From positions 17,137 to 81,136 of IMG/VR virus record IMGVR_UViG_3300048582_000084: DNA of 64,000 bases. One strand, 5' to 3'. The position numbers and the translations under genes were made by a program. The number at the start of each line of letters is the position of its first letter. The stretch's first letter is position 1. The notes beneath the pieces are model-generated. The model searched no databases, was not told where the DNA came from, and saw nothing but the letters and a program-made list of their open reading frames with translations. Below, piece by piece: positions 57,639-64,000 of the stretch. This stretch comes from a virus.

Positions 57639-57723
57639 TGGTGCGGGCGGAGGGATTCGAACCCCCACGGATTTCTCCACTGAAACCTAAATCCAGCGTG
57701 TCTGCCAGTTCCACCACGCCCGC
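57639..57723 (-). tRNA. tRNA-Leu(TAG)
   Basis: CTGGA-TTTAGGT-TTCAG, long variable arm, GGTTCGAATCC, CCA. Confidence 0.92.
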
Positions 57724-57853: not shown

Positions 57854-58234
57854 CTAAAAGTCGCAACGAAGGCGCTCAGTAACCTCCGTGAAAGCGCAGA
57901 AGCCTTCACGAATGACAGGCTCAGCACGCCACGGATTGCAGTCGCCGCAGACGAAGATGTCAACGGCAGCCATCTCAAACTCGGGCCATGTGTGGATCGA
58001 AATGTGACTTTCCGCCAGGATCAGAACGCCAGTCACGCCGCTGCCTTCACCGAAGTGATGGAAGTGGCCGCTGAGGATGGTTGCACCTGTCGCGGCGGCG
58101 GCTTGACGCAAGATGTGTTCAACATCTACAGGCGACGCTAGAAGCTCCGGGTCGGCGCGTCGGAGGTCGATCAGTAGGTGCGTGCCGAGATACCGCAACC
58201 CATCACGCCACACGAAAGACGGCGTGTGGTTCAC
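57854..58234 (-). CDS. speD: S-adenosylmethionine decarboxylase proenzyme
   Basis: LGTHLLID, GATIL...HHF..GSGVTGVLILAESHISIHTWPE...AVDIFVCG; GTG start coupled to upstream stop. Confidence 0.93.
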   Translation of the reverse strand: MNHTPSFVWRDGLRYLGTHLLIDLRRADPELLASPVDVEHILRQAAAATGATILSGHFHHFGEGSGVTGVLILAESHISIHTWPEFEMAAVDIFVCGDCNPWRAEPVIREGFCAFTEVTERLRCDF

Positions 58235-58509
58235 CAACGGTCGTAGTCCGTGACGTCGAGCGTCTGACCTGTGTGGGCCTCGCGAACAGTGAGGCTGGAA
58301 CCGATCCCCGAAGTCCGACTGAAGATGAACTCCAGGGTCGGAAACGGTGGGAGCGTCGGGACCGACGTGATGCCGATCAACTGACGTCGGGTGATCAGTT
58401 GGCTGGGGTCGATCTTGTCGAGCCACGCGTCGATCTTGTCTTGCTGTCCTCGGGTCACAAAGAACATTTCAACAAGTCGCTCTGGGATATCATACTCTAC
58501 GGTGGTCAT
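58231..58509 (-). CDS. Hypothetical protein
   Basis: CAGGAG RBS; F..TSGIG...LDVTDYD.W. Confidence 0.6.
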   Translation of the reverse strand: MTTVEYDIPERLVEMFFVTRGQQDKIDAWLDKIDPSQLITRRQLIGITSVPTLPPFPTLEFIFSRTSGIGSSLTVREAHTGQTLDVTDYDRW

Positions 58510-58531
58510 TTTGTCTCCTGAATGTGTAGGT

Positions 58532-58890
58532 AAAACGCCGCCCCGAAGGGCGGCGCTTTGTTGGCTAGCGGACGTTCTGTTGGCACCAGCGCAGAGCATC
58601 CTGACGTGCCGCCCACATTGGGGCGCCATTGCGTCGGACGATTTCCTGCGCGACCTGATCGATGCACCGGGATAGTTGGATATCGCGGCGGTCGTTTTCG
58701 GCCTGAGTCGGCGGGCGCTGCTGGGCAAATACGTCGAATGAGAAAGTGCAGACGAGAAGCGTAGAAAGAATGAGTAGACGCATAGGTGTGTTCCTTCATA
58801 TGTAAGACGGATCAGTCATCCGCAAGTCTACACTATATGAAGGTGAAACGACAGCGCAAGCCAATCAAAACGCCGCCCCGAAGGGCGGCG
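58532..58890. repeat. Identical 24-bp hairpin repeats (58532-58555, 58867-58890) flanking a one-gene cassette
   Basis: AAAACGCCGCCCCGAAGGGCGGCG occurs twice. Confidence 0.85.
58565..58783 (-). CDS. Small secreted protein
   Basis: Signal peptide, two Cys, AAGGA RBS. Confidence 0.55.
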   Translation of the reverse strand: MRLLILSTLLVCTFSFDVFAQQRPPTQAENDRRDIQLSRCIDQVAQEIVRRNGAPMWAARQDALRWCQQNVR

Positions 58891-58895
58891 TGATT

Positions 58896-59846
58896 TCAAA
58901 GCAGGTTATCACCCGCGTGGTTCTTGAAGCGCTCAGCGACACGGACGTAGCCGAGAGTTGTCTGAATCGAGGCATGGCGGGCGTGGTGACTGATTGCCGA
59001 CATGTCCTTTCCAGCAAGCGCTGAGGCGGTGCAGAAGCCTGCCCGCAAGCTGTGCGGACTGATCTTCCCTCCCAGCCCCGCCCGCTCCACCGCTTTCGCG
59101 AGGATGAGGCGAATCGCTTCTTCGCTGAGGGCTTCGCTCCCAACCGAACCGTTCTTCAAGACGCGTCGGAAGACGCTGCCGGAAGAGATGTTGGAAGCCT
59201 GAAGCCACGCAGCGATGGCGCGGACGGGGCACATAAGCTGGTTCTTGGCGTAAGGGATGGACACTTCAGCCCCCTTCCCTTCCTGATCCGTCTTGGATCG
59301 GTCGAGTTTGACGACGACGCCTTCGGAAACGAATTCAAGGTTCTCCACCGAGATCGCAGTGATCTCGGAGCGTCGAAAGGCGCCCGCGAAGCCAATCAAC
59401 AGGATCGCCTTGTCGCGAAGGCCCGAAACATCGAGACCAGTGGTCGAGACCAAGCTGGCCAGATGCTCAGGGAGAATGGCTTCCGCCTTCTCGACCTTGC
59501 GGGTCGAGGATCGGCGGATGCCAGCCATTACTTCGGCCAGGATCGGGTCTTGCCAGTTGAGAACAAGACGGGCGCGGTCGTGAAAGTACTTTACCGCCGA
59601 AAGGTGCGACGTCACCGTCGAAACCGCCTTGCCAGACTTCGCGAGCGAGGCGAGGTACACGGCAACGAACTGGATGCTGCTCGGGAGCGGGCTTGTCCCA
59701 TGCTCCGCGCAGAAAGCCAGGAAGGTCTTCCAGCTTGACGTGTATTGCTTGACGGTTCCGCTGGCGCGGCTGGCGGCGGCGTAATCGAGCGTGTCCTCAA
59801 TCAGCGAGGTGAGCGCTGCCGTGGGGTTGGTGACGGTGAGGGACAT
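58896..59846 (-). CDS. Cre/Xer-like tyrosine recombinase
   Basis: RDKAILLIGFAGAFRRSE, RSKTDQ, HSLRAGF, RH.S......Y; no arm-binding domain. Confidence 0.92.
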   Translation of the reverse strand: MSLTVTNPTAALTSLIEDTLDYAAASRASGTVKQYTSSWKTFLAFCAEHGTSPLPSSIQFVAVYLASLAKSGKAVSTVTSHLSAVKYFHDRARLVLNWQDPILAEVMAGIRRSSTRKVEKAEAILPEHLASLVSTTGLDVSGLRDKAILLIGFAGAFRRSEITAISVENLEFVSEGVVVKLDRSKTDQEGKGAEVSIPYAKNQLMCPVRAIAAWLQASNISSGSVFRRVLKNGSVGSEALSEEAIRLILAKAVERAGLGGKISPHSLRAGFCTASALAGKDMSAISHHARHASIQTTLGYVRVAERFKNHAGDNLL

Positions 59847-59911
59847 CGGTTTTCTCGTCCTTTGGTTGTGAAAATTGCAAAAGACGCATCCCGAAGGATG
59901 CGTCTCTGTAC

Positions 59912-60034
59912 TCACTCGGCGGGCGGCTTGTCTTTCCGACGCTCATCGAATCGCTTCTTCGCGGGAAGCAGCCCGAAGCGCACGACGATGAAGATCACCA
60001 GAACAACCGAGAATACGGCTTCTGCGACCATCAT
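59912..60034 (-). CDS. Small single-TM protein
   Basis: AAGGAGG RBS, ATGA overlap, hydrophobic N-terminus. Confidence 0.45.
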   Translation of the reverse strand: MMVAEAVFSVVLVIFIVVRFGLLPAKKRFDERRKDKPPAE

Positions 60035-60390
60035 GCGGCGACGGCGACCTCCTTACGAGGCTTCGGGCGGTTCGGAGCTTGCGGCTGCTCCACGCGGGGG
60101 CGCCGCTTCACGCCGAGCATCGCCAGGACGGTATCGACAGTCGGTCGGGTCGGGTAGGTAGCCGCGATGACCCACACGGTCGGTTCGGTGATGTGCGGCT
60201 GGCGCAGGAAGTCGGCCCACTCGGCATCCGTGAAGGTCATCATGCGGGTGCCCTCGATGTCGTGGCGATCCATCATGCCCAAGTCGAGCAGGCTCTTGCG
60301 GGTCCAGACGAGCCACGCGCCGTCGAGCTTGCGCTGGACGAGGTCGAAAAGCTGGCCGTTGTTCTGGTTGGAAATAGGATGCGTGTTCAT
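60031..60390 (-). CDS. Hypothetical protein
   Basis: ORF in operon. Confidence 0.55.
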   Translation of the reverse strand: MNTHPISNQNNGQLFDLVQRKLDGAWLVWTRKSLLDLGMMDRHDIEGTRMMTFTDAEWADFLRQPHITEPTVWVIAATYPTRPTVDTVLAMLGVKRRPRVEQPQAPNRPKPRKEVAVAA

Positions 60391-60444
60391 GTGTTCTGTT
60401 CCGTAATTGGAAGGTTGTAGTGCAAAAAGAACCCCGAAGGGTTC

Positions 60445-60645
60445 TTAGGTCGGGTTTACAACCATCACGAACAATAGAAAGTCTGTGATGAACTTCGACA
60501 GAAGAACGACTAAGCCCGTAATGAAGAGGGCGCAAAACCCGCCCACGATGGGTTCTCCGGACGTATCGCGCAAGGATCGATAGAGATAGCAGAACGAAAT
60601 AGCGGCAAACAGGATGGCGGCGATGGCGAGGTTGAGGGTTACCAT
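60445..60645 (-). CDS. Small membrane protein
   Basis: Two TM helices, just downstream of a promoter-like repeat. Confidence 0.5.
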   Translation of the reverse strand: MVTLNLAIAAILFAAISFCYLYRSLRDTSGEPIVGGFCALFITGLVVLLSKFITDFLLFVMVVNPT

Positions 60646-60660
60646 GTGGTGGTAGATACC

Positions 60661-60685
60661 TTCTCTCTAGGAGGGTTGAGTATTC
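60661..60685 (-). promoter_or_regulatory. Candidate phage-RNAP promoter GAATACTCAACCCTCCTAGAGAGAA
   Basis: Identical 25-mer at 43369-43393; variants at 50683-50706 and 27796-27818. Confidence 0.6.
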
Positions 60686-61316
60686 AGGCGTTGATCCAGG
60701 CAGCATCGTGATCGACGTTGCTGTCGAAAATGGCGAACTCGACCTCGACCTTCCCGACGTCGAACGAGAAGTACCGGAGCGCGGATACAGTCGCCTCGAC
60801 ATCATCCTGAAATGACCCTGCCGTGGTCTGGTAGTCTCGGAGAGTCAGCATCATGATGGGGTCTCCCGTAGCGGCTCGCTTGAACACGTTGCGGCTGAGG
60901 TGCGCGTCCATGCTCTCTGCGATGCTCCGCAGTTTCTGAAAACGCCCATCCGGCACAACGACCTGAATGTGGCTTTCGAAATAGCGGTTCTCAGGCATCT
61001 TGGGCCGGTCCAACAACGAAGATGCTGCCGGATGCCAAGGCACGGTCTCGACCTTTGTTCGGACGACGTCGAAGCCAAAAGCCATCATAGCGTGCTGGAG
61101 CAGGTATAGGTGTTGGGGGACGTCCTTGGTCGCCGCCGAAATGCGAGACGACGTCATGACGTCTTCCAGCACGGTGGTCCCTGTTCGGTCCTGAAGATCG
61201 AGGATGATCGGCTTGACGCCCATCTCCACACAGGCCGCTCGGAACGCCTCGATGGATTCCGGCTTTCGGACAGTCAGGTGAATCTCAAAAGGATAGGTAA
61301 CTAGGTCGGGCTGCAA
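60684..61316 (-). CDS. Hypothetical protein (duplicated ferredoxin-like E.H motifs)
   Basis: FEIHLTV / YFESHIQV, VRTKVE, HLSRN. Confidence 0.65.
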   Translation of the reverse strand: MQPDLVTYPFEIHLTVRKPESIEAFRAACVEMGVKPIILDLQDRTGTTVLEDVMTSSRISAATKDVPQHLYLLQHAMMAFGFDVVRTKVETVPWHPAASSLLDRPKMPENRYFESHIQVVVPDGRFQKLRSIAESMDAHLSRNVFKRAATGDPIMMLTLRDYQTTAGSFQDDVEATVSALRYFSFDVGKVEVEFAIFDSNVDHDAAWINA

Positions 61317-61371
61317 GGTTAGGCTCCTGAGTTTGTTTCAAAAAGGGGCCACCTTTCGGTGGTCCCTTACA

Positions 61372-62793
61372 TCAGCCGACCTTGTAGCGGTCGTTCATGA
61401 TGGCGTTCAGCATGATGTCCTCGGGCGTGAAGTTGTCACCATTCAGCAGCGCCTTCAGCAGCGCAGGCGAGTAGCCGCCCACCAGGGCCGTGCCGTCGTC
61501 CCGAATGGTCACCGGGTTGTTGCCCAGGCGAGCGTTCAGGTTCCAGAACACGATCTGCGGCATCGCGTATCCGGCCTTCGCATAGGCCTTGCGGACCATG
61601 TCGAGCGCGGTAGCATTGTCGCATGCCTTATCGAACTCCATATCCGACAGGATCAGGAGCTTGCGCGGCATGTCCTGCGGCGCGACGTTGTTCGCGACGG
61701 CGATTTCCAGAATCTTCCGGAACGCCGCATCGATGTTGGTCGAACCCATGAAGTTGTCATTGATCTTCGCCAGCTTCGCCTTGAGCGACATCGTGTCAGC
61801 AAGCTGCACGACGCGGGTCGAGGACGAGAAGGTGAAGACGAGGTTCTTGAAGGCACCCGTCTGGCGTTCGGCGGTATAGAGGCCGAGCGCCATCGCCGTG
61901 TCGCGGCAAGTGACCGACGACTTGCTTTCCCTTCCGCCGAGAGGGCAGCACATCGAACCGGAGAGGTCGATGAGGGGCAGAATCCCCGCGTCGCTGCCCA
62001 GGTAGTCGGGCAGGGAACGCCACTGCGCCTCGGCCACGACCGTGTCGCCACGGCGATACCCGGAGATGACGTCGTGCGGGAAGATCGCGGACGCGTTCAC
62101 CTTCGCGGTGCCATCGTTCTTGACCAATGCAGCCTTGTAGGCCGCATAGGCCTCGACGGCGCGCTTGTTGAACGCCTTCTGGTAACGCTTCGCCGCGACC
62201 GACGGGACGTGGCTGAAGTTGATGCTGTCCCATTCGCGGGCGCACATCTTCTGCTCGACCGTGTCGGACAGCCCGACGATCAGCTTCCGGTATCCCTTCG
62301 GCGTCAGTCCGAGAGCCTTGCGAAGGGCTTCGGCATCGGCACCCTTGCGGGGCATCCACTTCGCCGCCAGTCGGTCACCGTTGGTGAGCCCCTGGTCGAT
62401 GAAGGCGAACGCGAAGTCTCGGGCGGCGTCGCCGACTGCAAACAGATCGTCCCAACGGCCGACCTCGGGCGTCTTGGTGACGACCAGGGCAGCGTCGTTT
62501 GCGTTGATCTGGGACAGCCAGGACAGCAGGTAGCGGAAGGTCTGACGCTCGCCAGCGCCGCCGCGAATGTCGCGGAGCCAGAGCAGGGTACGCAACGCGT
62601 ACTCGCGGTTCTCCGCATATGCGCGCTGGAAGAGGATGAGGGCCTGGGCCTCCTTGCCACGCATGGCCGGGGCCTGGGCGAAGAAGTCCACGCACGCGCT
62701 GTGCGTCGTGAGGTTGGTGGCGGCACCGTTCGTGGTGCGGCTGAGATTGGAGCCAGCCCCGTTGGAGCGGGCGGCGGCGGATGCAAAGGTCAT
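61372..62793 (-). CDS. DUF2828-type TROVE-like/vWA protein (Ro60-related)
   Basis: T.NGA, RDIRGGAGER, GRWDD, AAKWMPR, VPS.A, QW..L, vWA MIDAS DLSGSM, STN, SDMEFD, P.IVFWN, GYS. Confidence 0.88.
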   Translation of the reverse strand: MTFASAAARSNGAGSNLSRTTNGAATNLTTHSACVDFFAQAPAMRGKEAQALILFQRAYAENREYALRTLLWLRDIRGGAGERQTFRYLLSWLSQINANDAALVVTKTPEVGRWDDLFAVGDAARDFAFAFIDQGLTNGDRLAAKWMPRKGADAEALRKALGLTPKGYRKLIVGLSDTVEQKMCAREWDSINFSHVPSVAAKRYQKAFNKRAVEAYAAYKAALVKNDGTAKVNASAIFPHDVISGYRRGDTVVAEAQWRSLPDYLGSDAGILPLIDLSGSMCCPLGGRESKSSVTCRDTAMALGLYTAERQTGAFKNLVFTFSSSTRVVQLADTMSLKAKLAKINDNFMGSTNIDAAFRKILEIAVANNVAPQDMPRKLLILSDMEFDKACDNATALDMVRKAYAKAGYAMPQIVFWNLNARLGNNPVTIRDDGTALVGGYSPALLKALLNGDNFTPEDIMLNAIMNDRYKVG

Positions 62794-62822
62794 TGGGTTA
62801 AGTCTCCTGAGTGGGTTGGTAG

Positions 62823-62880
62823 CAGGCTGCTCCCTTTGCTTCAGAGTTAAGGTCTGATGGGATGTGTGCTGTGGGCAGCC
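62823..62880 (-). ncRNA. Structured leader RNA of the TROVE/vWA gene (Y-like end stem plus anticodon-arm-like hairpin)
   Basis: GGCTGC-CCACAGCA...TCCC..TCAGA-CCTTAAC-TCTGA..GGGA-GCAGCC-TG. Confidence 0.55.
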
Positions 62881-62907
62881 TTCAAAAAAAGACCCCTTGC
62901 GGGGGTC

Positions 62908-63102
62908 TCAGTCCAAGTATTCTCTATCATCTTCCGGCTCAACCGGAGACGGCGTCTGCCCGGCAGCGCGCTCGATGTCGTCCGCAATCTCGTACAGTCG
63001 AGCGCGGATGTCGTTGCTGCGGTCGTTTGGGCGATGGTCGGGCGCTGGATAGGTGTCGCGAATCCACTGCGCGTGGGCGAGGAGTTGGGCGGTGGTGGGC
63101 AT
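62908..63102 (-). CDS. Hypothetical protein
   Basis: AAGGA RBS; lies between the ncRNA cluster and the TROVE gene. Confidence 0.55.
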   Translation of the reverse strand: MPTTAQLLAHAQWIRDTYPAPDHRPNDRSNDIRARLYEIADDIERAAGQTPSPVEPEDDREYLD

Positions 63103-63159
63103 GGTAAGTCCTTGATGGGGTTCGGTAAAAAAGCCCCCAGGGCCTTACACCAAAGGGCT

Positions 63160-63283
63160 CCGCGCCCCCACCGCCAGCCTTGCGGTTCCTCCGGATTATG
63201 AGTCCGGTGTGCTTTCTATCGTTGACGCGATGTGGCCTAGGCCTGCTGCCTTTCGGCGGGACTGCTTACCCGTCAAAGTAAGC
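63160..63283 (-). ncRNA. Structured RNA with CAU anticodon arm and possible pseudoknot
   Basis: CCGGA-CTCATAA-TCCGG; loop TTGACG complementary to downstream CGTCAA; flanked by terminators. Confidence 0.5.
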
Positions 63284-63326
63284 AAAAACCCATCAGACAT
63301 TTCTGTCATGATGGGTCTGGAAGATC

Positions 63327-63428
63327 GCTCCTAGTGACGCTGGACCTTCAAAGCGGTCCCCCTCTTGTTCGGTCGGGGGCTCTGACTCTCTTGCGAGTAC
63401 CTAGCCCCGTTATCGCGCGATTCGGAGC
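63327..63428 (-). ncRNA. Putative multi-stem ncRNA
   Basis: GCTCC/GGAGC closing stem, GGGGCT/AGCCCC and GGACC/GGTCC hairpins; between terminators. Confidence 0.4.
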
Positions 63429-63467
63429 AAAACGGGAGCCCTGGGGCTCCCGTACTATTACTACGCA

Positions 63468-63652
63468 TGCTGTTGGCCGGTTTCGATACCGACTTAGGAT
63501 TTACGAACCTGTTTTGTGGGTTTGCCGACACCGGACAGTCGTCTTCTAAGTTCTTGCGAACAAGGTAGCCACCACATTTTACTCAGCGATGTCTTGACCA
63601 TCTAGGGATTCGGGCATCGCCTTGCTGCGTGTCCTTCCACGCCGCAACAGCA
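63468..63652 (-). ncRNA. Putative multi-stem ncRNA
   Basis: TGCTGTTG/CAACAGCA closing stem enclosing several hairpins; followed by terminator. Confidence 0.4.
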
Positions 63653-63674
63653 GAAACGTCCCTTTCGGGACGTT

Positions 63675-63787
63675 CAGGATACGCATTTTTACGCGTGCTT
63701 CTACTGCACCACCGCCGCGCATGTGCGGCGACCAGGGATTGCACCTGGGTCTCGCCCTCCAAATGGTTATAGTTGCTGTAGGTATCC
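63675..63787 (-). ncRNA. Y RNA (YrlA)-like circularly permuted tRNA mimic
   Basis: GGATAC/GTATCC end stem enclosing T-arm, closed acceptor stem and D-arm in permuted order. Confidence 0.7.
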
Positions 63788-63820
63788 AAAAAGAGCCCGA
63801 AGGCTCTTAGCTCTTAGTTG

Positions 63821-64000
63821 TCAGAAACGCTCCATGTACGAGACGTCCTCGACTCGAACCCAGAATCCATCAGTGTAGAAAGTCACCGAATGCGCGAACA
63901 TGGAAGCGAAGGAGTTCCAAGCCTGTTCCGCAGTCGCGTCGTCAGTCGCTGAGAGGTCGAGTTCCTTGATAAGCCCGCTCTTGAAGAAGAAACGGACGGA
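63821..64000 (-). CDS. Hypothetical protein, 5' end outside window
   Basis: Open frame ending ...VEDVSYMERF* before a terminator. Confidence 0.45.
   Translation of the reverse strand, partial: SVRFFFKSGLIKELDLSATDDATAEQAWNSFASMFAHSVTFYTDGFWVRVEDVSYMERF

What the first reader, a model, noticed from the sequence alone, without database searches (positions are those of the whole stretch)
63675..63787. Circularly permuted tRNA mimic with Y RNA/YrlA architecture but a non-canonical end stem
The minus strand reads GGATAC-CTACAGCAA-(linker)-GAGAC-CCAGG[TGCAATC]CCTGG-TCGCCGC[ACATGC]GCGGCGG-TG-GTGC[AGTAGAA]GCAC-...-GTATCC-TG. This gives a variable region, a 5-bp T-arm with 7-nt loop, a 7-bp acceptor stem closed by a loop, U8-G9 and a 4-bp D-arm. 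The RNA ends pair where the anticodon arm would be. T-acceptor-D order is the known YrlA layout. The protein-binding end here (ACAGCAA bulge) does not look like the canonical Rsr-binding motif as I recall it. A tRNA scanner would probably miss it.
Basis: partly seen in the sequence, partly recalled or inferred. Interest (0 to 1): 0.85.

Follow-up and report, generated by a model that had tools for sequence, protein, structure and literature searches.

The report
Phage tRNA-mimic RNA with ACAGCAA handle
This is a real, conserved small RNA of a phage that copies the elbow of a tRNA and carries a short "handle" found beside a Ro60-like protein gene in many phages, so it probably belongs to an undescribed relative of the Ro60/Y-RNA particle.

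Summary
Folding energy alone does not support it (z -0.99; T and D arms are improbable in the ensemble). Comparative evidence does. A covariance model built from 12 similar RNAs of other phages, without the window, hits it full length (58.8 bits, E 7e-9), with 22 of 23 pairs standard. In those 12 RNAs 94% of pair cells pair and 17 of 23 pairs show compensatory changes.

The order is T arm, closed 7-bp acceptor stem, U8-R9, D arm, with the two ends paired. This is the YrlA layout. It is not a YrlA member: there is no Rfam hit, the GNCGAA motif is not in the YrlA position, and the 81-kb contig has no TROVE gene.

The end helix plus ACAGCAA is a handle. It occurs 186 times on the gene strand and 11 times on the opposite strand in 127 loci that encode a DUF2828/DUF7788 protein. 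That gene lies 882 nt downstream here. Its vWA domain is homologous to Ro60's (hhalign 89%, E 2e-6).

Best reading: a Y-RNA-like partner of that protein. Binding is inferred, not shown.

Earlier runs of this scan noted the same family on other DNA (260 notes, at least 177 genomes). My paper searches found no description of it.

The parts
63788..63808 (-). Terminator-like hairpin AAGAGCC[TTCG]GGCTCTT plus TTT. It ends the upstream gene and abuts the RNA's 5' arm.
   Evidence: Read. L050 has the same arrangement: a hairpin and T run directly before its handle.
63782..63787 (-). 5' arm of the closing helix (GGAUAC)
   Evidence: Pairs with 63682-63677. Ensemble probability 0.71-0.98. This helix covaries in relatives, with 5 of 7 pairs compensatory in A5 and 7 of 7 in A6.
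63773..63781 (-). Handle motif: 2-nt spacer CU, then ACAGCAA
   Evidence: C-A-G-C-A are invariant columns in alignments A3 and A5. The strict handle occurs 186 times on the gene strand and 11 times on the opposite strand in 127 loci.
63749..63772 (-). Linker in the position of the YrlA 'V' region. It ends in C, a possible C48.
   Evidence: Variable in length and sequence across relatives. The C before the T stem and G15 in the D loop could form the Levitt pair. This is read from the sequence and is an inference.
63732..63748 (-). T arm CCAGG[UGCAAUC]CCUGG
   Evidence: Aligned to the family T arm by MAFFT and by R2. The T helix has 3 of 5 pairs compensatory in A5. The loop departs from the family UUCGAAU at position 55 (G for U).
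63712..63731 (-). Closed acceptor-like stem UCGCCGC[ACAUGC]GCGGCGG (7 bp, first pair U-G)
   Evidence: Ensemble probability 0.89-0.98 for 6 of the 7 pairs. This helix has 6 of 7 pairs compensatory in A5 and 7 of 7 in A6. In L050 it is UCAGAGC[GAAA]GCUCUGG.
63695..63711 (-). U8-G9, then D arm GUGC[AGUAGAA]GCAC
   Evidence: RNAalifold predicts this helix on its own from a MAFFT alignment. 3 of 4 pairs are compensatory. The loop has UAG where relatives have UGG or CGG.
63675..63694 (-). 3' linker, 3' arm GUAUCC (63682-63677) and the conserved UG tail
   Evidence: The 3' flank ...CC-UG(U) recurs in relatives.
63655..63674 (-). Hairpin AACGUCCC[GAAA]GGGACGUU directly after the RNA. Possible terminator or 3' stabiliser.
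   Evidence: Read. L050 has a strong hairpin plus T run at the same place. The consensus scan did not list it.
61372..62793 (-). Gene for the proposed protein partner: 473 aa, DUF2828 + DUF7788, Ro60-type vWA domain
   Evidence: Pfam DUF7788 2e-42, DUF2828 8e-25, vWA_Ro60 6e-4 (below cut-off). PHROG 850 'RNA-binding protein' 9e-139. hhalign against a TROVE profile: 89% probability, E 2.2e-6 over 189 columns.
62824..62881 (-). Second handle element in the gene's leader: AGGCUGC-CC-ACAGCACACA...GCAGCCU-GC
   Evidence: Conserved with L050 (GGGAUGC...GCAUCCC, compensatory) and, more weakly, with phage DLP_6. R1 gives only a weak hit: 9.7 bits, E 0.15 in 1.3 kb.

Best explanation
Window 63787-63675 (minus strand) encodes a small non-coding RNA of about 113 nt with two modules.

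Module 1 is a handle. The 5' and 3' ends pair in a 6-bp helix. This is followed on the 5' strand by a 2-nt spacer and ACAGCAA, and on the 3' strand by UG.

Module 2 is a tRNA-like body in the order T arm, closed 7-bp acceptor stem, U8-R9, D arm. It could fold into a tRNA elbow without an anticodon arm.

Shown here: the RNA structure is conserved and covaries. The handle recurs on the coding strand next to DUF2828/DUF7788 genes in very different phages. That protein's C-terminal domain is homologous to the Ro60 vWA domain.

Inferred: the handle is the binding site for the DUF2828 protein encoded 882 nt downstream, as the Y RNA stem is for Ro60. The tRNA-like body then presents a tRNA shape to some tRNA-binding factor, either as an adaptor or a decoy. 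The function would lie in RNA surveillance or in the phage-host conflict over tRNA. The contig also carries eight tRNA genes.
For: Structure:
- R2 was trained without the window and hits full length at 58.8 bits, E 7e-9, with 22 of 23 pairs standard.
- On the structure-blind MAFFT alignment A5 of 12 RNAs, 94.1% of 269 cells pair. This compares with 67.3% in shuffles (0 of 500 reach it) and 36-45% when partners are slid. 17 of 23 pairs show changes on both sides.
- On 26 distinct model-aligned RNAs the figures are 96.6% and 22 of 23.
- RNAalifold on its own finds the closing helix, the D arm and part of the T arm.

Ortholog: L050 (protein 71% identical) has the same RNA at the same place, with different stem sequences and canonical T and D loops.

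Tertiary hint: among the 26 distinct RNAs, only the window and the L008 group have G at T-loop position 55. Only these two have A in place of G18 in the D loop. Their nearest relatives (L050; L006 and L007) have U55 and G18.

Link to the gene:
- The strict handle occurs 186 times on the gene strand and 11 times on the opposite strand, against 2-10 in block shuffles. 92 of 127 loci have at least one.
- All 53 R2 hits, in 40 of 127 loci, lie on the gene strand. 12 of them are the training RNAs.
- DUF2828 is the only neighbouring protein shared beyond L050.

Protein:
- hhalign DUF2828 profile against a TROVE profile gives 89% probability, E 2.2e-6 over 189 columns, covering the MIDAS DxSGSM motif through SGF(S/D).
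- With its own family left out, the nearest clusters by language-model features are all TROVE/Ro60, scoring 0.91-0.93.
- GenBank records call homologues 'Ro-like RNA binding protein'.
Against: - No RNA data. No sequencing run could be listed, so expression, ends and processing are unknown.
- Binding to the DUF2828 protein rests on gene neighbourhood only.
- Thermodynamics of this single sequence does not favour the T and D arms. MFE z is -0.99, and the proposed fold lies 2-8 kcal/mol above the MFE.
- The T loop (UGCAAUC) and D loop (AGUAGAA) depart from tRNA and family consensus, so this copy might be a decaying member.
- The outermost family pair is U-U here.
- The N-terminal two thirds of the protein gave no TROVE match. 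PF05731 matched 0 of 62 homologues. hhalign aligned only the vWA part. PDB profile hits to phage Ro60 are not significant, E 0.75.
- A small ORF and a terminator lie between this RNA and the gene, so they need not be co-transcribed.
- There is no room for a promoter between the upstream hairpin and the RNA, and the promoter scan found none.
Confidence: 0.68

Rival explanations
1. It is a real tRNA-mimic RNA, but the handle is not a DUF2828 binding site. The handle would be a processing or stability signal, for instance for an RNase or a host protein, shared by small RNAs of phage tRNA regions. The DUF2828 gene would merely sit in the same genomic neighbourhood.
For: Handle RNAs often lie among tRNA genes, as in SUSP1, and tRNA genes flank many loci. 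In phage DLP_6 the best tRNA-like hits lie about 18 kb from the gene. Dictyostelid Class I RNAs share a similar stem-plus-motif design, and the protein shown to bind them directly is an RRM protein, Rnp1A (PMC7919456, passages). No binding data exist for the phage RNAs.
Against: The loci were collected by the protein alone, and 92 of 127 carry the handle on the gene's strand. A handle copy sits directly in the gene's own leader here, in L050 and in DLP_6. The protein has a Ro60-type vWA domain, and Ro60 is known to bind exactly this kind of end helix.
Confidence: 0.2
2. It is a cis-acting part of a long leader or operon transcript, one of several hairpin units that control termination, processing or translation of the DUF2828 gene. 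It would not be a free trans-acting RNA.
For: The RNA is flanked by hairpins. About 700 nt between the upstream gene and the small ORF have no convincing ORF. No sigma-70-like promoter was found in 62500-64000.
Against: In other phages the same RNA type lies downstream of the gene (Whirlwind, SUSP1) or far from it. A terminator and a 64-aa ORF separate it from the gene here. A conserved tRNA-like body is hard to explain for a leader.
Confidence: 0.08
3. It is a decayed or rearranged tRNA gene remnant, or a chance arrangement of hairpins, with no function.
For: The T and D loops are non-canonical. Single-sequence folding is no better than shuffles. R2 also gives weak hits (20-24 bits) at junctions between tRNA genes.
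Against: The hit is full length at 58.8 bits and includes the handle. The acceptor is a closed hairpin, not two genes. L050 keeps the same RNA through many compensatory changes. This is the only strict handle in 64 kb.
Confidence: 0.03

Closest known systems
YrlA-type bacterial and phage Y RNAs bound by Rsr/Ro60 (Rfam RF02553; Chen et al. 2014, PMC4201824)
   Same: A small RNA whose ends pair in a helix and whose middle mimics a tRNA in the order V region, T arm, acceptor-like stem-loop, D arm (PMC4201824, section 6). It is encoded beside the gene of a protein with a Ro60-type vWA domain. The Bxz1 YrlA read shows the same arm order.
   Different: There is no Rfam match at the site. The handle is a 6-bp helix plus ACAGCAA, not GNCGAAN0-1G. 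The neighbouring gene is DUF2828/DUF7788, not a Pfam TROVE protein. R2 scores the Bxz1 YrlA at only 28 bits.
Thermus phage phiLo Ro60 with Yrl1/Yrl2 (PMC12135203; PDB 9KOP, 9L5Y)
   Same: A phage-encoded Ro60-type protein with small RNAs encoded just upstream of its gene. The authors propose hijacking of host PNPase (passages seen).
   Different: Those RNAs were picked by a CGAA motif and a stem-bulge-stem shape. The protein is a TROVE-domain protein. The DUF2828 profile matches it only at E 0.75, in the MIDAS region.
Class I RNAs of dictyostelid amoebae (Rfam RF01414; Kjellin et al. 2021, PMC7919456)
   Same: A short helix joins the 5' and 3' ends. A conserved 11-nt motif sits next to the 5' strand, with C, C, A, A fixed at motif positions 6, 9, 10 and 11, and the tail is CUGU (passages). 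Short handle RNAs of E. coli phage SUSP1 match the whole RF01414 model at 26.9 bits. One IMG/VR locus matches at 31.9 bits.
   Different: All phage scores are below the gathering score of 41.5. The window's own genome gives no match at E<=10. The window RNA is 113 nt with a tRNA-like insert, whereas Class I RNAs are 42-65 nt. The protein shown to bind Class I RNA directly is an RRM protein. That the motif reads CCUUACAGCAA is my recollection and comes from no call.
tRNA and permuted tRNA genes
   Same: T arm, 7-bp acceptor helix, U8, 4-bp D arm. The 3'-half-before-5'-half order resembles permuted tRNA genes (the comparison with permuted genes is from general knowledge).
   Different: There is no anticodon arm, and the acceptor is closed by a loop without CCA. 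It was not called by ARAGORN or by Rfam tRNA.

Membership tests
YrlA (Rfam RF02553) | Scores at or above the Rfam gathering score (69 bits) with the YrlA covariance model | tested here: not met
   No YrlA match at E<=10 in window 60000-64000. In the whole 81-kb contig the only matches are 12 bits, inside the tRNA cluster.
YrlA (Rfam RF02553) | GNCGAAN0-1G motif near the 5' end (proposed Rsr contact; PMC4201824 section 6) | tested here: not met
   After the 5' arm the sequence reads CUACAGCAAC. GGCGAGA occurs 31 nt in, just before the T arm, but it is absent from L050 and from the family alignment. I take it as chance.
YrlA (Rfam RF02553) | tRNA-like domain in the order V, T arm, acceptor-like stem-loop, D arm, closed by pairing of the ends | tested here: met
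   R2 alignment, 22 of 23 pairs standard. Covariation in relatives.
YrlA (Rfam RF02553) | Encoded next to an rsr/Ro60 gene with a TROVE domain (PF05731) | tested here: not met
   PF05731 finds nothing at E<=1 in the contig. The neighbour is DUF2828/DUF7788. 0 of 62 homologues match PF05731 at E<=0.1.
ACAGCAA-handle RNAs beside DUF2828 genes (uncatalogued; defined) | 6-7-bp helix joining the ends, a 2-nt spacer, [A/U]CAGCAA on the 5' strand, and G two bases after the 3' arm | tested here: met
   The strict definition hits 63677-63787 (-). This is the only hit in the 64-kb window on either strand.
ACAGCAA-handle RNAs beside DUF2828 genes (uncatalogued; defined) | On the same strand as, and near, a DUF2828/DUF7788 gene | tested here: met
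   The gene is at 61372-62793 (-), 882 nt downstream on the same strand.
ACAGCAA-handle RNAs beside DUF2828 genes (uncatalogued; defined) | Recognised by a covariance model of the tRNA-like subclass built without it | tested here: met
   R2 gives 58.8 bits, E 7e-9, model positions 1-125.
Dictyostelid Class I RNA (Rfam RF01414) | Scores at or above the gathering score (41.5 bits); length 42-65 nt | tested here: not met
   No match at E<=10 in the contig. The RNA is 113 nt.
Dictyostelid Class I RNA (Rfam RF01414) | Short end-joining stem with a conserved 11-nt motif next to the 5' strand (T3, C6, C9, A10, A11) and a CUGU tail | tested here: inconclusive
   Reading ACCUACAGCAA as the motif gives C6, C9, A10 and A11, but C at position 3. 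The tail is CUGA. The register of the motif is my assumption from the paper's text.
tRNA (RF00005) or permuted tRNA | Anticodon arm, and an open acceptor end able to carry CCA | tested here: not met
   No anticodon arm in the sequence, and the acceptor is closed by ACAUGC. No ARAGORN or Rfam tRNA call.
Ro60/Rsr protein family (for the neighbouring gene) | Ro60-type vWA domain with a MIDAS motif | tested here: met
   hhalign A7 against A8: 89.2% probability, E 2.2e-6 over 189 columns, with DxSGSM aligned. Pfam vWA_Ro60 stays below its cut-off, matching 14 of 62 homologues with best E 1.7e-4.
Ro60/Rsr protein family (for the neighbouring gene) | N-terminal TROVE (HEAT-repeat) ring | not testable with these tools
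Sequence and profile methods gave no N-terminal match. Language-model features place TROVE clusters nearest, at 0.91-0.93. This is a lead only.

The most novel reading that the evidence does not exclude
DUF2828/DUF7788 proteins and ACAGCAA-handle RNAs form a second, widespread Ro60/Y-RNA-like particle of phages. Homologues of the protein are found in 710 cultured-phage records, including Felix O1-like, Listeria P100-like, Campylobacter, Enterococcus, Vibrio and cluster L mycobacteriophages. One protein would read a universal handle, while the RNA cargo is swappable: tRNA elbows as here, whole tRNA bodies, or short hairpins. The handle is the same design as the Class I RNAs thought to be unique to social amoebae, which hints at a shared, very old RNA-protein recognition code. 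The paired change G18 to A with U55 to G in this copy would mean that selection keeps the tRNA elbow itself.
Probability: 0.45. Interest if true: 0.88.

Novelty: new variant of a known kind. Interest (0 to 1): 0.76.

Why it matters
Ro60 and its Y RNAs are a conserved RNA-surveillance particle and a major human autoantigen. Their bacterial and phage versions (YrlA) are the only known RNAs that mimic a tRNA in this permuted way.

This RNA shows that the same tRNA-mimic design is attached to a different recognition handle. It travels with a different, Ro60-related protein family that has no known function.

The pairing occurs in easily grown phages of E. coli, Salmonella, Listeria and M. smegmatis, so the proposal can be tested at the bench.

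If it holds, it gives a function to DUF2828 and explains unannotated gaps in many phage tRNA regions. At least one such gap appears to be mis-annotated as a protein gene. It would also add a new player to the phage-host conflict over tRNA.

Tried and rejected
- Rfam families: nothing at the site. YrlA in the contig matches only tRNA genes at 12 bits. Dicty Class I RNA gives no match.
- blastn of 63300-64000 against cultured phages: no match.
- blastn of the intergenic region against the first 47 loci: only short matches to the handle.
- The short-handle model R1 finds the 5' handle as the only window hit but pairs it with a wrong 3' partner, because the insert is long (15.1 bits, E 0.34). I do not count this as support on its own.
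- My first, loose handle finder gave 520 hits on the gene strand against 398 on the opposite strand. That was too noisy, and I replaced it with the strict definition.
- Attachment-site (attP) reading, prompted by the integrase at 58896-59915: rejected. The same RNA type occurs in Felix O1-like phage SUSP1, and the T loop is not that of a tRNA.
- Junction of two tRNA genes: rejected. The acceptor is a closed hairpin.
- Sequencing runs: none was listed for 62700-64000 and no RNA holder was listed.
- Protein fold: not obtained (see the last paragraph).
- PDB searches: phmmer found nothing at E<=10. The profile search gave only non-significant hits.
- Paper searches:
  - 'DUF2828': 5 papers, none on RNA.
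  - 'YrlA' + 'phage': 6 papers.
  - TROVE / Y RNA / bacteriophage / Ro60: 54 papers, 20 listed.
  - 'ROT TROVE' + 'RNA repair': 0 papers.
  - 'Ro-like RNA binding protein': 6 papers, including phage genome announcements; none concerns handle RNAs (listing only).
  - 'ACAGCAA' anywhere + phage + noncoding RNA: 382 papers. The 15 listed are noise from 'macrophage'/'esophageal' matches.
  - Y RNA / phage / tRNA-like / von Willebrand: 18 papers.
  None describes handle RNAs beside DUF2828. The library lacks most subscription journals.

Full report
WHERE IT IS. The window is bases 17137-81136 of an 81,136-bp IMG/VR virus contig rated 41% complete. The finding lies 213 nt from the contig end. On the minus strand the region reads as follows:
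- the tail of a gene cut by the contig end (63821-64000);
- a terminator-like hairpin with a T run (63808-63788);
- the element (63787-63675);
- a second hairpin (63674-63655);
- about 550 nt with no convincing ORF;
- a 64-aa ORF (63102-62908) with its own terminator;
- a 58-nt leader element;
- a 473-aa gene (62793-61372).
The window also holds eight tRNA genes.

OBSERVATION. Taken alone it is not convincing:
- The MFE fold (-39.1 kcal/mol) is no better than shuffles, with z -0.99.
- The MFE fold contains the closing helix and the acceptor hairpin, but not the T or D arms.
- The proposed four-helix fold is worth -31.1 kcal/mol, or -37.0 when the rest is allowed to pair.
- Ensemble probabilities are about 0.3 for the T arm and 0.06 for the D arm.
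ARAGORN and Rfam see nothing at the site.

RELATIVES.
- The downstream gene is DUF7788 (2e-42) plus DUF2828 (8e-25), with a sub-threshold match to the Ro60 vWA domain. It belongs to PHROG 850, 'RNA-binding protein' (9e-139).
- I collected 47 IMG/VR loci and 80 metagenome loci that encode relatives of this protein, each oriented with the gene on the plus strand.
- A blastn of the intergenic region against the first 47 loci matched only a 20-30-nt stretch, namely the 5' arm plus ACAGCAA.
- Listing the motif showed it again and again near the gene on its strand, often in several copies. Each copy was closed downstream by the complement of its own 5' arm: GGATAC/GTATCC, GGATGC/GCATCC, GGATTC/GAATCC, AGATAC/GTATCT, GAATAC/GTATTC.
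- With a strict definition the handle occurs 186 times on the gene strand and 11 times on the opposite strand. Block-shuffled sequence gives 2-10. 92 of 127 loci have at least one. In the 64-kb window the only hit on either strand is the finding.
- The inserts between the handle strands vary widely. Some are A/U-rich stretches of 20-40 nt. Some are large structured RNAs of about 250 nt. Several kinds are tRNA-derived.

THE tRNA-LIKE SUBCLASS.
- Twelve RNAs from other phages carry T arm, 7-bp hairpin, 2 nt, then D arm inside the handle. MAFFT aligned them with the window element arm for arm.
- RNAalifold, given no structure, predicted the closing helix, the D arm and part of the T arm.
- On the alignment without the window (A5), my four-helix structure has 94.1% of 269 cells paired. 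Shuffles give 67.3% (0 of 500 reach the observed value), and sliding the partners gives 36-45%.
- In A5, 17 of 23 pairs show changes on both sides: 5 of 7 in the closing helix, 3 of 5 in the T arm, 6 of 7 in the acceptor and 3 of 4 in the D arm.
- The covariance model R2 built from A5 hits the window at 63790-63673 (-). The hit is full length at 58.8 bits, E 7e-9, and every pair is standard except the outermost U-U. The next hits (20-24 bits) are junctions of adjacent tRNA genes with broken acceptor pairs.
- Across the 127 loci, R2 finds 53 matches at E<=0.001 in 40 loci, all on the gene strand. Twelve are the training RNAs and two are partial matches.
- On the 26 distinct model-aligned RNAs, 96.6% of cells pair and 22 of 23 pairs show compensatory change. 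This alignment leans towards the model.

THE ORTHOLOG. L050 is the only close relative (protein 71% identical). It has, directly after a terminator, GGATGT-AT-TCAGCAAC-...-GTGGG[TTCGAAT]CCCAC-TCAGAGC[GAAA]GCTCTGG-TA-GCTC[AGTTGGTA]GAGC-...-GCATCC-AG, followed by another terminator. Every helix differs in sequence from the window's, yet the architecture is identical. This extends to the U-G first pair of the acceptor. L050 has textbook T and D loops, while the window has UGCAAUC and AGUAGAA.

In the structural listing, only two of 26 distinct RNAs have G at T-loop position 55: the window and the L008 group. Only these two have A where the others have G18. Their nearest relatives keep U55 and G18. 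In tRNA, residues 18 and 55 pair at the elbow (established knowledge). A double change that arose twice therefore suggests the elbow is kept. This is an inference from two events. U8, A14, A21, U54-A58, a G able to pair with C56, and a possible G15-C48 pair are all present in the window RNA (read).

COMPARISON WITH TRUE YrlA. Chen et al. 2014 define YrlA by three features: a GNCGAAN0-1G motif near the 5' end, V, T, acceptor-like and D stem-loops in that order, and a neighbouring TROVE gene (PMC4201824, section 6 read in full, other passages seen). Mycobacteriophage Bxz1 has a true TROVE gene and a weak YrlA match just upstream (32.5 bits). Its RNA has the same arm order, but it is closed by a 10-bp G+C-rich stem carrying GCCGAGAG, and R2 scores it at only 28 bits. 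So the body is shared and the handle is not. The window contig has no PF05731 match.

THE PROTEIN.
- None of 62 homologues matches TROVE at E<=0.1. 14 of 62 match vWA_Ro60 below its cut-off.
- Profile against profile, the DUF2828 family matches a TROVE/Ro60 family at 89% probability, E 2.2e-6, over 189 columns that span the whole vWA domain.
- With its own family left out, the nearest clusters by language-model features are all TROVE/Ro60, scoring 0.91-0.93. The tool rates this range as a lead only.
- The fold of the N-terminal part could not be tested because structure prediction was off.
- Homologues occur in 710 cultured-phage records. Some are annotated 'Ro-like RNA binding protein'.

CULTURED PHAGES. 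Three cultured phages carry unannotated handle RNAs:
- Whirlwind has three, in the 380-nt gap after the gene. One is tRNA-like at 72 bits.
- SUSP1 has four, among its tRNA genes. One is tRNA-like at 52 bits, and one lies under a CDS annotated 'hypothetical protein'.
- DLP_6 has one in the gene's leader.

CLASS I RNAs. The paper's text describes a short helix joining the ends, an 11-nt motif next to the 5' strand and a CUGU tail (PMC7919456, passages). RF01414 matches short handle RNAs of SUSP1 at 26.9 bits and of one IMG/VR locus at 31.9 bits. Both are full length and both are below the gathering score of 41.5. It finds nothing in the window's genome. This is a resemblance of the handle, not membership.

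MECHANISM.
- Shown: a conserved, covarying RNA with a tRNA-like body and a handle that travels with DUF2828 genes, and a Ro60-type vWA domain in that protein.
- Inferred: the protein binds the handle as Ro60 binds the Y RNA stem, and the body offers a tRNA shape to a third factor.
- Unknown: transcription start, ends, processing, and the third factor.
The hairpin-plus-T-run directly before the handle, seen here and in L050, leaves no room for a promoter. The RNA may therefore be cut from a longer transcript. This is speculation.

NOVELTY AND SCORE. The kind of system is known: a Ro60-like protein with a tRNA-mimicking Y-like RNA. The handle and the protein family are not in Rfam 15 or in the papers I could search. 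The searches are listed under Tried and rejected, and supplements were closed. Earlier runs of this scan noted the same family on other DNA: 260 notes in at least 177 genomes. I treated those notes as leads and tested the claims here on this window. I rate it a new variant of a known kind, with interest 0.76.

Noticed in passing
window 62824-62881 (-): A second handle element lies in the leader of the DUF2828 gene: AGGCTGC-CC-ACAGCACACA...GCAGCCT-GC. It is conserved with L050 3398-3455 through compensatory stem changes and, more loosely, with phage DLP_6. It encloses a small hairpin with a 7-nt loop. It could let the protein act on its own mRNA.
   Followed up: partly
window 63103-63654 (-): About 550 nt without a convincing ORF but full of hairpins. 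These include CCGGA[CTCATAA]TCCGG at 63207-63191, which looks like a CAU anticodon arm, and T-loop-like AGG[TTCGTAAAT]CCT. L050 has a similar-sized structured gap. No Rfam match.
   Followed up: no
window 63737-63743 and 63699-63705 (-); L008 2669-2769: T-loop position 55 is G and the D-loop G18 position is A. This pairing of changes occurs only in the window RNA and in the unrelated L008 group among 26 distinct RNAs. It is a possible covariation of the tertiary 18-55 pair.
   Followed up: partly
L131 4829-4999 (Escherichia phage SUSP1, NC_028808.2 84877-85047): The CDS annotated 'hypothetical protein' (AVU07_agp138) overlaps a handle RNA at L131 4877-4931. That RNA also matches Rfam RF01414 at 26.9 bits. 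The CDS is probably a mis-annotation.
   Followed up: partly
window 60684-61316 (-): A 210-aa protein just downstream of the DUF2828 gene matches only the C-terminal half of PHROG 1247 ('MazG-like pyrophosphatase') and phrog_25995. It carries HLT and HIQ motifs that recall 2H phosphoesterases (a recollection, not tested). A 43%-identical copy sits elsewhere in L050.
   Followed up: partly
window 62908-63102 (-): A 64-aa ORF with its own terminator lies between the RNA region and the DUF2828 gene. tblastn finds no relative in any of the 127 loci.
   Followed up: partly
contig G000:C1 12198-12364 (+), outside the window: A second strict-handle hit in the contig. R2 finds nothing there, and about one such hit is expected by chance in 81 kb on two strands.
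   Followed up: no
window 57854-59915 (-) and 57639-57723 (-): A tyrosine integrase (339 aa), an S-adenosylmethionine decarboxylase homologue (190 aa) and a tRNA-Leu gene lie close together downstream of the locus.
   Followed up: no
window 63750-63756 (-): GGCGAGA lies just before the T arm. It resembles the YrlA GNCGAA motif with one mismatch, but it is in a different place and is absent from L050.
   Followed up: partly
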